A stretch of DNA of 64,000 nucleotides from Eledone cirrhosa (lineage: Eukaryota): contig OZ024740.1 in NCBI GenBank assembly GCA_964016885.1, positions 349,928,001 through 349,992,000 of the forward strand. Reading direction: 5' to 3'. Both the position numbers and the translations under genes were made by a program. The notes under the pieces are model-generated. The model was not told the origin of the DNA. It was given only the letters and a program-made list of their open reading frames with translations, and ran no database searches. Shown here piece after piece: positions 2,228 to 44,420 of this stretch; the stretch's first letter is position 1; every line of letters begins with the position of its first letter.

Positions 2228-5200
2228 CACTGAACGCGTCATACTGGATGATCAAACTTTTATCAACATTACCGTTGAGGGTAGGCGGCCCTCGTGTTAT
2301 CTCTGTGGAACCAGAGGTCAACTGAGGGCTGTCTGTCCTCAACTTAATAAGAAAATCCCAATCCTGCCTACACCACCAACAACTGCACAACCAACACAAT
2401 CACCACAACCACCACTACAAAAACAACAACCACAGCTCAAACCAAAACAAAACAATGTCCAACCCATCCCCCCCACTAAAAAAAAACAACTTCCAAAACA
2501 CCCGCACCGCAAACACAACCCGAAAATATACCCCTCCCCTCCAACGCGGAAGATGACTCTCGTTCGTCGTCAGACGAGGAGGAGCACCTCCACACAATCA
2601 AAAGAAAAGAAAGAAAACACACCTCAGACACACAAATGAAAACAACCCCTCCCCAAAACATAACACTGACACCAACACAAAAGAGCACACAACAACAGCA
2701 AACAAAAAACACCACACAAAAACAAAAACATGCATACGCATACATAAACACAAAATATAAAAAACTGTTAAACATTGTGTACAAGAACAATTTGATAAAA
2801 ACCCAAGGGCCTAACTTCACCCAGGCAGGGATTTCCCCCACCTCAAAATTAAGGCCCCAGAGGACACTTATAAAACACTAAAAAACAACTTTAAAGAGGA
2901 CGTGCCCCCCCACCCCTGCGTCGGGCCCATTAACCGCGTCCTCCTAAAAAACTACCCCACCCCCTCTCCAAACACCCCAACCACACAACACACTGATGCC
3001 CCTACACTTCCACAAACCACCACCCCACCCAACAACCCATCCCTCACCCTCATGGAAATTGTGCATCCCGATACCCGGGACGCAGAGAGGTAAGTGCCTT
3101 TTCTCTTCACCACCAACATGGCTATGCTAAGAGTAGGCTGTCTAAATGCGCGTGGCCTGGGCTCAACTTGGAAGCAAGCAATGCTTCTAAATGACCTCAG
3201 GTCACAACGTATAGATGTGTTGGTTATTTGCGAGGCCCGGATCAGCAACGTGCGACAGCTGGCCCCCACCTTTGATGACTTTGAGATGCACGCATCTCTC
3301 TGTCAGCCCGGAGGTTGGCGTGGGGTTGTCGTTCTGCTGCAAAAACATCTGGGTCTCACAACACAGACGGTACATTTGGACCCAGAGGGTCGACTAGTGG
3401 TTCTGGACCTTGGCAGTGGTGAAGGCGGAGCGTTTAGGTTGGTAGCCGTCTACGGCCCTTTCGGGTCAATGCGGCCGGACTTCTTCCATCGTCTGGAGAC
3501 TTTTCTAGGGACGTCCCGCTCCTTGCTATTAGTGGGGTACTGGAATGGTATCCTAGATGCACGCTGGGACTACGTAAGGGCCTGTCTCGATAGAGAGAGG
3601 TGTAATAGCCTCAAAGGGTTAATCGGTCGATTTGACCTGGCCGATAGATATCGACTAGATTTTCCGACTGCGCCAACCTGGACTTGGGCAAACCGTAGCG
3701 GATCATCTAGGTCGTACCTAGATAGGTTCTTAGTTAGAAATAAGGATAAGGACTTTTTAAGTTGTCCAAAAATGCGCATGGTTGGCTATTCAGACCACAA
3801 GTTAGTGAGCTGCATGGTCAACCTTGACAGAACGCATAGACAGGGACCCAGTTACTGGAAGCTCAACTTGTCCTTACCGGCAAGTAAGGCTTACAGGGAC
3901 CGGATTAGCATTTTAGTTAAGGAGCGGTTGACGGGCGCCATCGTCAACAGCAGGTGGTGGGGATCTCTCAAAAGAGAGATTAGAGTAGTCTCTATAGAAT
4001 TTAGTAAGGAGTTAGCCTCAAATAAAACTAGGAAGGAAAGGGAGTTGGTAGATAGTGTAGAAGAGGCAATTAGAAGCGGCGACGTGGCAAGAGTGCTAGC
4101 GTCGAGAACGGCCCTGGGACAGTTCTTCGACGTGAAACACGAAGGCTGCATCGTCCGAAGCAAAATACGTGCTCTGGGAAACGAGGGGGACCAAAGCTGT
4201 TAGCTGCGCCCGCGTGACAGAAGCCAAAAGAGGGAGTAGATCCACTATCCGGTCTTTGCGAGACCAGGATGGACGGGTGATCCTTGAACCTAAGCAGATG
4301 TGCGGGGCTTTTCAAAAGCACTTTGCCAGATTGTTCGGAAGGGGCGGGGAGCCGGTTGGGGAAGTGGACTTCGGTCCATACCTCGACGGCCTGCCGCGTC
4401 TCTTGGACAGGGAGGCGAAGTCCTGTGAGGAGCCGATTTAAGCAGCTGAGATAGAGGATGTGCTGAGCCAAAGCGGCAAACGCAAATCCCCGGGTCTCGA
4501 TGGTCTTCCATACGAACTATATCTAGCTATGCCGGACTTGTTCCCCGATCTCCTCGAGGCGGTCTACTGCAACTGGCAACAGAACGGGAGAATTCCCTGT
4601 GCTGTGACCAAGGGCGTAGTCACGCTAGTGAGGAAGGACGAGAACAAGGGGGACGATATAAATAATTTCAGGCCCATAACTCTGTTAAATACAGAGTTAC
4701 AGATTTTGGCCAAGGTGCTAGCAAAGAGGTTGGCGCTTGTCGTGGGCAACCTGGTGGGAGATGCGCAGACATGTGCTATCCCGTCCAGGTCCATCCACGA
4801 CAACCTCCACCTCATGCGATATATCATAGAGAGGGTTGGGAATGAACCCTGCTTTGGTGGGGCCCTGATCAACTTGGATCAATCTAAGGCGTTCGATAGG
4901 GACCATGGTTACCTGAATGCGGTGCTAGCGGCGGCAGACTTCGGACCCGTTTTCAGGGGCTGGATCGATGCCATGCACAGCAGCCGCATCTGCTCTAGGG
5001 TCAAGGTGAACGGCTACCTCTCGGAGCCGTTCGAAATCGCGCGGTCCATCCGACAAGGGTGCCCTCTCTCCTCCCTTCTGTATGTAATGACTCTAGAGCC
5101 ACTGCTGCGGAAGTTGGAGTTGTTGCAGGGCATCCCGTTAGAACCGGGATTGCGGAAAGCGGTGTCGGCTTACGCCGATGACGTAACAGTAATGGTGTCG

Positions 5201-42400: not shown

Positions 42401-44420
42401 TGTGCAATCCCGACCAGGTCCATACACCACAACCTCCACCTCATGCGATACATCATAGAGAGGGTGGGTAGTAAACCCGGCTTCGGTGGGGCTCTGATCA
42501 ACTTGGATCAGTCTAAGGCATTCGATAGGGTCGACCATCGATACTTGGAAGCGGTTCTCAAGGCGGCCGGTTTCGGTCCCGTGTTCAGAGGATGGATCGA
42601 GGCGATGCACACCAGCATCTGCTCGAGGGTCAAGGTGAACGGCTACCTATCGGAGCCGTTCGCAATCACGCGTTCCATTCGACAGGGATGCCCTCTCTCC
42701 TCCATTCTGTATATATTGACTCTAGAGCCACTACTGCGGAAATTGGAGCTGTTGCAGGGCATCCCCCTAGAACCGGGACTGCACAAAGCGGCGTCGGCTT
42801 ATGCCGACGACGTAACGGTAATGGTGTCGAGCACCTCGGAAATCGGGGTGATCGGCAACATACTGAAAGAATACGAAACGCTGACGGGAGCAAAACTAAA
42901 CCCAGACAAGTCTGTCGGTTTGCAACTCGGTACGTGGAGAGGCAAACCGATGACATCCGACAGCGTCGTTGGACGCTGGACGGACGGACCGGTGAAATTG
43001 CTCGGGGTCTGGTTCGGTCCAGATCTCCAGGTGGAGAAAAACTGGAACGAGGTCACGGCCAAGATGTTTGCACTCACTCAGAAGTGGGCAGAGTGCAAAC
43101 TGTCCTTGAAAGGTCGAGCGGAGGTGGCAAACACTTTCATAGCGTCCGTCATCTACTACCGCTTGACTGTCTTGCCTTGTCCCCGTGAACAGCTCGCCAA
43201 GATGGAACGCATGCTCTTCCAGTTTCTGTGGAAGAAGCAGGCTCCGCTGGTGAGGAGTTCCGTCTGCTGTCAGCACCCTTCCAACGGAGGGCTGGGAATG
43301 CCGTGGCTGATGATGCGCAAACATGCGTTGAGGCTGCGGCATCTCCAGGTATTCCTCACCGACCCCCAACCGGTGTGGGCACCGTTTGTGAGACAGGCTT
43401 TCCTACAGCTCGTCTCGCTAACGGAGCTGCAGTCCTGGGTGAAGAAAAGACCGAAAACGATGGGCGCCTGGCACATTGAATGCGCTCAGGCGCTCACAGT
43501 CCTCTGGCAAGCGGGCGCAGCAATCAGTGGAGACTCCACTTCGACATTCTATAGAGGGATTGTACGTTACAAGGGGGACGACGTGCTCGGAGAGACTCTG
43601 GGCGTCGAAGACGATGAGCTCACCAGTCTGTTTCGTAGGACTTTCCTCCCGGGACCTATGGACAACTTCCAGAGGTCCCTGGCCTGGCAGTGCTACCGAG
43701 GAGCTCTACCGGTTCGTGACAAGATCTACAGGCACGGACGCCCTGGCAGGGATCCTTCCAAGAGGACGTGTACAAGATGTGCGCAGGACATTGAAACAGT
43801 TCTGCACGCAATTGTACACTGCCCGGGCGTAAGCGACCTGTGGAACTATGCAGAACAACTGCTGTCGCGTATGGGACAAATCCAGTTGGCTGCCGAGTTC
43901 ATAGTAAGGATCAAACCGCCAGACTCTTTCAAAAACGAAAGAGAGGCGGTTTTCCTCTGTACGGTGGATATGGTGAAAGAAGTTATATGGTGGACGAGGT
44001 TGAGAGGACTGAGGACAGATGCCTTTCTCTCCGGACAACAATTGATTCCCTTCTTTAAGTATCACTTTAGAAGGAGAATCAGGGTGGAGAGAGAGGCACT
44101 GCACCCCAGTAAATTTACTGAAAGGTGGGTGAATGAAGCGAAAATGGCCCGAGTGATTGGGCCTTCTCTGTTTATAAGCCTGTAGGTTGAGGAAGAGAGC
44201 AAAAGGAAGAAAGGAGCACTTGCACAACACGCTCCTCGAGTTGAGGGTTGTTCTATCGACGGGGTATTAAACAACCCATTTGTGGCGCCTTCCCCCTATT
44301 GGGGATTTCGATTGTTGAAATTGTTTGTTTTTATATTTTTTACACGACTGTATGTAAAATCCCCGGCATGTCTTTGTATTGTCCCCTTTTTTTGTTGCGC
44401 CCTTGTGACTAATAAAGAAA
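39404..44420 (+). mobile_element. Tx1 copy B7, truncated in ORF1, intact ORF2
   Basis: ORF1 with CFRCGSTSHLKASC (one frameshift in the A-run near 39865), stop 40697; ORF2 40739-44185. Confidence 0.95.
40739..44185 (+). CDS. Intact Tx1 ORF2 (1148 aa), second family
   Basis: All APE, RT and CCHC motifs present. Confidence 0.95.
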   Translation: MAGLRVGTVNVRGLGMPWKKGQLLNDLRSHSMDVIAITESRIHNRQQLTPIFDDFEIYASLCQPGGGGGVAVMFRKNLDVGVQQVHLNPEGRLVVLDVNSIGGGALRLVAVYAPTGQSQSRPDFFKRLESFLGTSRSLLLVGDWNGILDARWDYVGACPSRAGCNSLKTLIGQFQLADRYRLDFPTAPQWTWVNHSGTSRSYLDRFFIRERDKDMLSCPRMHMVAYSDHKLVVCLVNRDRIHRQGPGYWKLNVSLPTRKAYSERISKLVKQQLTGAIVNNRWWYSLKKAIRIESIGYSRELALEKNRIERELVAKVEEALRSGNAARVLASRTALDQFFDAKHEGCVVRSKTRALGNEGTKAVSWARVAEAKSGNKSTIRSLKDQNGRVLLDPKQMCAAFQRHFARLFERNDGEPNGAMDFSSYLDGLPRLSNTDAEFCERPITDTEIRDALGRCGKRKSLGLDGLPYEFYIGMPDLYSGVLEAVYCNWQQNGRIPSSAGKGVVTLIRKDENKGDEMNNFRPITLLNTELKILAKVLATRLALVVENLVGKAQTCAIPTRSIHHNLHLMRYIIERVGSKPGFGGALINLDQSKAFDRVDHRYLEAVLKAAGFGPVFRGWIEAMHTSICSRVKVNGYLSEPFAITRSIRQGCPLSSILYILTLEPLLRKLELLQGIPLEPGLHKAASAYADDVTVMVSSTSEIGVIGNILKEYETLTGAKLNPDKSVGLQLGTWRGKPMTSDSVVGRWTDGPVKLLGVWFGPDLQVEKNWNEVTAKMFALTQKWAECKLSLKGRAEVANTFIASVIYYRLTVLPCPREQLAKMERMLFQFLWKKQAPLVRSSVCCQHPSNGGLGMPWLMMRKHALRLRHLQVFLTDPQPVWAPFVRQAFLQLVSLTELQSWVKKRPKTMGAWHIECAQALTVLWQAGAAISGDSTSTFYRGIVRYKGDDVLGETLGVEDDELTSLFRRTFLPGPMDNFQRSLAWQCYRGALPVRDKIYRHGRPGRDPSKRTCTRCAQDIETVLHAIVHCPGVSDLWNYAEQLLSRMGQIQLAAEFIVRIKPPDSFKNEREAVFLCTVDMVKEVIWWTRLRGLRTDAFLSGQQLIPFFKYHFRRRIRVEREALHPSKFTERWVNEAKMARVIGPSLFISL

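What the first reader, a model, noticed from the sequence alone, without database searches (positions are those of the whole stretch)
3090..44187. ORF2 appears bracketed as an intron: splice donor on the ORF1 stop, acceptor on the ORF2 stop
Seen: all four ORF1/ORF2 junctions, from three families, carry a consensus donor overlapping the ORF1 stop (AG|GTAAGT at 3090, 32965, 40694; G|GTGAGT at 28781). All 13 ORF2 ends use TAG followed by GT and a purine-rich run, and 12 have a pyrimidine tract before it (e.g. 1575, 6552, 32256, 36430, 44185). The joins restore a stop despite different phases: B5 gives GAG AG|G TGA (identical ORF1p) and B4 gives AAG G|GT TGA. B7 would instead gain a basic tail, LRKRAKGRKEH...GY*. 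Known: gag-only spliced RNAs set stoichiometry in Drosophila copia and Arabidopsis EVD; I know of no Tx1 equivalent. Inference: an ORF1-only mRNA that keeps the 3' UTR and could be mobilised in trans. Caveats: a competing AG lies 7 nt upstream in most copies, and no spliced retrocopy is in this window.
Basis: partly seen in the sequence, partly recalled or inferred. Interest (0 to 1): 0.8.

Follow-up and report, generated by a model that had tools for sequence, protein, structure and literature searches.

The report
Conserved splice donor ending LINE ORF1
A young, abundant clade of microsatellite-targeting retrotransposons keeps a near-perfect splice-donor motif at the end of its first gene in all 18 lineages examined, which likely lets some transcripts drop the enzyme gene, although no spliced RNA was seen and no spliced copy was found in the genome.

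Summary
The donor holds up well. The acceptor is plausible but unproven. Mobilisation in trans is not supported.

The window is a tandem array of TATC-inserted APE/RT LINEs from a clade with 11,845 ORF2-start matches genome-wide. In 18 lineages (ORF2 proteins as little as 68% identical) the ORF1 end carries G|GTRRGT (one has G|GTAATT). It is the element's best match to the host U1 in 13 of 18. Positions -1, +1, +2 and +6 never change, against 17% of fourfold sites. It persists in all three reading phases and with all three stop codons, so it is not a by-product of the stop. Distant L1/Tx1 relatives show only background (4 of 26).

The AG at the ORF2 stop is third best of 140 widely shared AGs. 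Donor phase matches a nearby stop more often than chance (p about 0.03; 0.07-0.09 after collapsing kin). However, its conservation does not exceed coding constraint, and families E/F (4,290 copies) have TAA.

Junction searches in 13 lineages found no spliced retrocopy. No run is on record as RNA. Best reading: a selected U1 site, likely making a minor, non-mobilised ORF1-only RNA (0.38). Main rival: U1 guards the full-length RNA against premature polyadenylation (0.30).

The parts
3087..3095 (+). ORF1-end donor GAG|GTAAGT of a 5'-truncated B5-type element; stop TAA inside it
28778..28786 (+). ORF1-end donor AGG|GTGAGT of B4, phase 1; ORF1 stop TGA one codon later
32962..32970 (+). ORF1-end donor GAG|GTAAGT of B5, phase 2; best U1 match of 308 GT sites scanned
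40691..40699 (+). ORF1-end donor AAG|GTAAGT of B7, phase 2; best U1 match of 297 GT sites scanned
32971..32992 (+). Pyrimidine-rich spacer between donor and ORF2 ATG (71-88% pyrimidine at +7..+30 in all 18 lineages)
32993..36430 (+). Intact ORF2 of B5 (1145 aa; APE, RT, zf-RVT); the proposed intron is 32965-36430
40739..44185 (+). Intact ORF2 of B7
36408..36431 (+). Candidate acceptor of B5: pyrimidine tract, CAG at -7, TAG|G at the ORF2 stop
32234..32257 (+). Candidate acceptor of B4 (CAG at -7, TAG|G)
44163..44186 (+). Candidate acceptor of B7 (AAG at -7, TAG|G)
36431..36694 (+). 3' UTR of B5: purine-rich start, AATAAA, then TATC tail
26694..32495 (+). Near full-length B4 copy with frameshifts, between TATC arrays

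Best explanation
The 9-mer at the ORF1 end is conserved across this LINE clade in all three reading phases and matches the host U1 5' end, so it is likely a selected 5' splice site that in a minority of transcripts would join to an AG at or 7 nt before the ORF2 stop, giving a predicted ORF1-only mRNA of about 2.3 kb. Shown: the motif, its conservation, its rank in the element and the absence of joined genomic copies. Inferred: U1 binding, helped by the pyrimidine-rich spacer (TIA-1-like enhancement, recalled from the literature); use of the stop AG; and translation of a near-native ORF1p. Because no joined copy is found, the spliced RNA would be rare in the germ line or excluded by cis preference. 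It would then supply extra ORF1p or damp ORF2 output, and would not be a mobile element.
For: Positions -1, +1, +2 and +6 show 0 changes and +5 shows 1 change on an 18-lineage tree, where 24 of 141 fourfold sites are invariant (mean 2.28 changes). The motif is kept in phase 0 (H), phase 1 (B4, C, D, I) and phase 2, with TAA, TAG or TGA, and with unrelated ORF1 C-termini. It is sole best U1 match in 13 of 18 (host U1). The stop AG has mean score 12.2; only 2 of 139 shared ORF2 AG columns score higher (a simple home-made score). Own-phase joins stop within 3 codons in 9 of 16 (stop AG) or 14 of 16 (first AG), against 7 and 12 of 32 off-phase; label shuffle p = 0.036 and 0.026. Precedent: the Drosophila copia intron covers all of pol, and Ty1/Copia donors are conserved (PMC5580714, passages).
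Against: E/F end ORF2 with TAA yet keep the donor in 4,290 copies. The G of TAG has 1 change, which half of twofold sites match or better. The phase test weakens to p = 0.07-0.09 with kin collapsed, and B4 and B4a share one 3' end but differ in phase, so one of them gets a 44-46 codon tail under either AG. No joined copy was found, although a spliced insert needs only about 300 nt to show the junction; ORF1-only TRE5-A.2 is mobilised efficiently in trans (PMC3159450, passages). Donor columns were anchored on a GT-motif search; an unanchored alignment put 17 of 18 in the same columns.
Confidence: 0.38

Rival explanations
1. U1 binds the site without productive splicing and protects the full-length RNA from premature cleavage at poly(A) signals in the A-rich ORF1, or aids its output (telescripting, as shown for EVD).
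For: This explains phase independence, retention in E/F and the lack of joined copies. A[AT]TAAA occurs 27 times in the last 500 nt of ORF1 against 15.9 expected, in 15 of 18 lineages against 10.0 (lineages are related). U1 suppression of premature termination is shown for EVD (PMC5580714).
Against: These signals lie upstream of the donor, and ORF2 downstream has few (9 against 16.3 expected). Three of 18 lineages have none within 500 nt. It does not explain the phase/stop match.
Confidence: 0.3
2. The donor is spliced, but to other acceptors (inside ORF2, in the 3' UTR, or downstream in the array or host), lowering ORF2 output.
For: Two shared ORF2 AGs score above the stop AG (window 35800 and 33408). 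E, F and N have a strong 3' UTR AG (score 15).
Against: No single alternative is shared by all lineages, and the 3' UTR AG predates the loss of TAG. Off-donor copies inspected were duplications, point changes, indels or microhomology deletions: 32 of 39 seen, 7 of 7, 9 of 9.
Confidence: 0.14
3. The motif is not a U1 site; it serves stop-codon context or ORF2 translation re-initiation and only resembles a donor.
For: It sits on or beside the ORF1 stop, 25-50 nt before a Kozak-like ORF2 start. No RNA evidence of splicing exists.
Against: It is kept where the stop lies 1 codon (B4, C, D, I) or 12 codons (H) further on. The variation seen (A/G at +3 and +4, T at +5 once) stays within good U1 pairing.
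Confidence: 0.12
4. The donor removes a 28-61 nt mini-intron (the spacer) and fuses ORF1 to ORF2.
For: The first AG after the spacer would be in frame in 11 of 18 lineages, and it is the top-scoring AG in 6.
Against: None of the 5 phase-0 or phase-1 lineages gives a fusion. Such an RNA would transpose in cis and lose the spacer, yet no spacer-less copy appeared. The lengths are below usual metazoan minima (recalled).
Confidence: 0.06

Closest known systems
Drosophila copia spliced gag RNA
   Same: An intron covering the whole enzyme region would give a structural-protein-only RNA that ends at the normal 3' end (PMC5580714, passages).
   Different: copia is a single-ORF LTR element that needs splicing to make a stop. 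Here ORF1 already has its own stop, and splicing is not shown.
Arabidopsis EVD / plant Ty1-Copia shGAG
   Same: A conserved U1-type donor at the end of the structural gene, with a dual role in splicing and in blocking premature termination.
   Different: The EVD intron is short and coupled to premature polyadenylation. No shared short intron exists here.
HAL1 (half-L1) and Dictyostelium TRE5-A.2
   Same: ORF1-only derivatives of two-ORF non-LTR elements (PMC5753468; PMC3159450; passages).
   Different: These exist as genomic, mobile families. No donor-joined ORF1-only copy was found here.
Human L1 splicing (SpIRE)
   Same: Functional splice sites inside a LINE RNA (PMC5860796, passages).
   Different: The passages seen describe 5' UTR and ORF1 splices that leave retrocopies and are dead ends. 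Here the donor is at the ORF1 end, appears selected, and leaves no retrocopy.
Tx1-clade microsatellite targeters Kibi and Koshi
   Same: Non-LTR elements inserted in microsatellites (PMC4494074; PMC3812793; passages).
   Different: The arrays here are TATC or ATT, not TC or TTC; no splice signal was mentioned in the passages seen.

Membership tests
Tx1/L1-group LINE | ORF2 with APE endonuclease, RT and C-terminal zinc-binding region | tested here: met
   PF03372 and PF00078 above cut-off; PF13966 at E 4e-5, below cut-off
Tx1/L1-group LINE | ORF1 with RNA-binding region and CCHC knuckle | tested here: inconclusive
   zf-CCHC E 0.24; atlas look-alikes 0.90-0.92 to CCHC, RRM and ZCCHC3-type clusters
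Tx1 clade | RT tree placement with named Tx1 elements | not tested
   No named Tx1 reference was obtained; the label rests on architecture and target
Tx1 clade | Target preference for a repeat | tested here: met
   Window elements end in, and mostly follow, TATC arrays; C-F families end in ATT arrays
copia-type spliced structural-gene RNA | Conserved donor at the end of the structural ORF | tested here: met
copia-type spliced structural-gene RNA | Conserved acceptor after the enzyme ORF | tested here: inconclusive
   AG at the stop in 16 of 18 lineages, not beyond coding constraint; absent in E/F
copia-type spliced structural-gene RNA | Spliced RNA observed | not testable with these tools
   No run on record as RNA; contigs only, tables cut
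HAL1 / TRE5-A.2-type non-autonomous element | Genomic ORF1-only copies with the element's 3' end | tested here: not met
   0 donor-joined copies; ORF1-only deletions with other breakpoints were not searched

The most novel reading that the evidence does not exclude
A whole LINE clade treats ORF2 as a retained intron. A donor on the ORF1 end and an acceptor on the ORF2 stop co-evolve in phase so that splicing yields native-like ORF1p. Tissue-specific splicing switches the element between an ORF1-only state and a transposing state, with the spliced RNA barred from retrotransposition.
Probability: 0.3. Interest if true: 0.8.

Novelty: new variant of a known kind. Interest (0 to 1): 0.58.

Why it matters
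LINEs are thought to set the ORF1p:ORF2p ratio by translation of one bicistronic RNA and to lose by splicing. A splice donor kept under selection at the ORF1 end, through at least three phase shifts in a clade of over ten thousand copies, means these elements probably need U1. Either outcome (an ORF1-only mRNA, or U1 protection of the full-length RNA) would extend to non-LTR elements a strategy described for copia-type LTR elements. One RNA-seq data set or a minigene can decide it. Five full-text searches (listings only) showed no report of this for Tx1-like elements; most subscription journals and Repbase notes were not searched.

Tried and rejected
RNA: no RNA holder was listed. Contigs of X4, X5, X1 and X6 were laid on B5; no 32964^36431 joint was among 15 rows shown, with 81 hidden. 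X4 alone was laid on a B5 junction; there was no joint from the donor among 3 listed and no loose end at the donor among 6 shown of 61; one 268-nt contig of a related family bridges the junction unspliced. The kind of X4 is unknown and contig depth cannot rank parts, so none of this is used as evidence.

Pattern checks: the pattern matched no native end and is uninformative. One search proved blind to the B5 and B6 3' UTRs, so one search was run; it gave 9 hits against 7 control, all outside elements. One search covers only the AGs near the E/F stop; the 3' UTR AG is covered. One search gave 6 hits, none a junction. One search gave 11 hits: 4 mutated or deleted ORF2 ends, 1 truncated 3' end and 6 unrelated. 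Lineages I, O and N were not probed at their own junction, and J and H only from the acceptor side.

Other: the ORF1 protein search for transcript-derived tails found nothing. Searching G000 with P0003 and P0001 returned only the 68-69% families. Earlier-findings look-ups were empty. The HAL1 paper was not held. The host was not identified; 'octopus' was a guess. No supplements were read.
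Full report
Setting. The window lies on contig C1 of a 3.0-Gb animal assembly. It holds a head-to-tail array of non-LTR elements separated by TATC repeats. Two ORF2s are intact, with APE, RT and zf-RVT domains. 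ORF1 from a related copy is about 640 aa with a weak CCHC hit. The clade is large and young: 40 of 40 scored hits to the B5 ORF1 end are 100% identical, of 1,187 candidates, and an ORF2-start motif occurs 11,845 times. 'Tx1-like' rests on architecture and microsatellite targeting; no tree with named Tx1 elements was made.

Observation.

The donor. I fetched 60 copies chosen for diversity from the first 100 hits, plus 16 intact-ORF2 hits. I kept one natural copy for each of 18 lineages; three extra or older copies were dropped before counting, one of which has T at -1. All 18 carry G|GTRRGT at the ORF1 end, except one with G|GTAATT. Positions -1, +1, +2 and +6 show no change and +5 shows one, while 24 of 141 fourfold sites in ORF2 are invariant. 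These columns were anchored on a GT-motif search, so the figure is partly circular. An unanchored alignment put 17 of 18 donors in the same columns, between variable ORF1 ends and spacers. The first 30 genome hits, picked only by the ORF2 motif, have a U1 score of 7 or more in 29 cases, against 63 of 690 ORF2 windows. The site is the sole best match to the host U1 5' end among 178-313 GT sites in 13 of 18 elements. It is not a by-product of the stop. TAA, TAG and TGA all occur inside it. It sits in phase 1 in B4, C, D and I, and in phase 0 in H, where ORF1 reads 12 codons past it. In 26 distant L1/Tx1 loci (25-31% identity; 3 more had no usable ORF1 end), 4 reach a score of 7, two of them one family, which is background. 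The feature is therefore clade-specific as far as tested.

The acceptor. ORF2 ends in TAG in 16 of 18 lineages, but E and F have TAA, and E/F-type ends with an intact donor number 4,290. With a simple pyrimidine score the stop AG ranks 1-32 of 122-275 AGs per element, and only 2 of 139 shared ORF2 AGs average higher. Its conserved letters are mostly forced by Leu-stop coding. One hint favours pairing: joins in the lineage's own phase stop within three codons in 9 of 16 (stop AG) or 14 of 16 (first AG), against 7 and 12 of 32 off-phase. The shuffle p is 0.036 and 0.026, but 0.07 and 0.09 with kin collapsed to 12 groups. B4 and B4a share a 3' end but differ in phase, so one of them is mismatched under either AG.

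Retrocopies. Of 2,996 B4/B5/B7-type ORF1 ends, 2,712 keep GTRAGT. None is joined to a B4 or B7 3' UTR start (coverage checked). A second probe for B5, B6, M, G and K gave 9 hits against 7 control, all outside elements. Probes for H/J, E/F and C/D also gave no junction. Off-donor variants were duplications, point changes and indels. L067 and L309 are deletions that start at the donor but fit microhomology, not an exact GT-AG join. The patterns are exact, so old mutated copies can be missed, but the trans-mobilised element that was proposed is not there in numbers. The same searches found no copy lacking only the spacer. This argues against a mini-intron fusion, which also fails in all five phase-0 and phase-1 lineages.

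RNA. No listed run is on record as RNA. Contig overlays showed no joint from the donor in tables that were partly cut, and are not used as evidence.

Mechanism. Shown: a U1-complementary motif conserved beyond neutral sites and independent of frame, followed by a pyrimidine-rich spacer. Inferred: U1 binds it. The best single reading (0.38) is occasional removal of ORF2, giving a non-mobilised ORF1-only RNA as in Drosophila copia. Close behind (0.30) is splicing-independent protection from premature polyadenylation, as in EVD (PMC5580714, passages). Poly(A) hexamers are somewhat enriched in the last 500 nt of ORF1 (27 against 15.9) and scarce in ORF2 (9 against 16.3). The two readings are not exclusive.

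Literature seen. Passages: PMC5580714, PMC5860796, PMC3159450, PMC5753468, PMC4494074, PMC3812793 and PMC13282606. Listings only. No supplements were read. TIA-1 enhancement and minimum intron size are recalled. Family letters (B4-B7, C-O) are working labels.

Verdict. The donor is real, appears selected and was not found in the papers searched. The intron is plausible but unproven, and the mobile ORF1-only element is not supported.

Noticed in passing
L168-L171, L196 (family H; its 3' end is the element at window 1-1800): All 5 copies have ATA in place of the ORF2 ATG, overlapping the ORF1 stop TAG. One copy has an open ORF2 of 1137 codons, so this family may use non-AUG or coupled re-initiation.
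   Followed up: partly
L098-L113 against the window elements: Sister families with ORF2 68-69% identical end in ATT arrays, while the window families end in TATC arrays: a possible target switch within one clade.
   Followed up: partly
window 1-6930 and 21700-48320: Different families are stacked head to tail through shared TATC arrays; 5.8-6.1 kb spacing of hits recurs genome-wide.
   Followed up: no
L061-L075, L083, L086, L090: A recurrent chimeric subfamily has a B4a-type ORF1 end followed directly by a B5-type ORF1 end and donor; some copies have a further 75-nt duplication.
   Followed up: no
window 45620, 46215 and 48070: One element carries three internal deletions: ORF1 knuckle to ORF2, mid-ORF2, and up to the ORF2 stop.
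   Followed up: no
run X4 on window 36434-36690 and L014:1125-1430: Summed contig depth peaks on the 3' UTR and near an A-rich stretch and AATAAA in ORF1, unlike run X1. This may be a 3'-biased RNA library, but the run kind is unknown and depth is not interpretable.
   Followed up: no
L104, L106, L184 3' UTR: A strong acceptor-like site (U-tract then CAG) lies about 160-180 nt into the 3' UTR of E, F and N only.
   Followed up: partly
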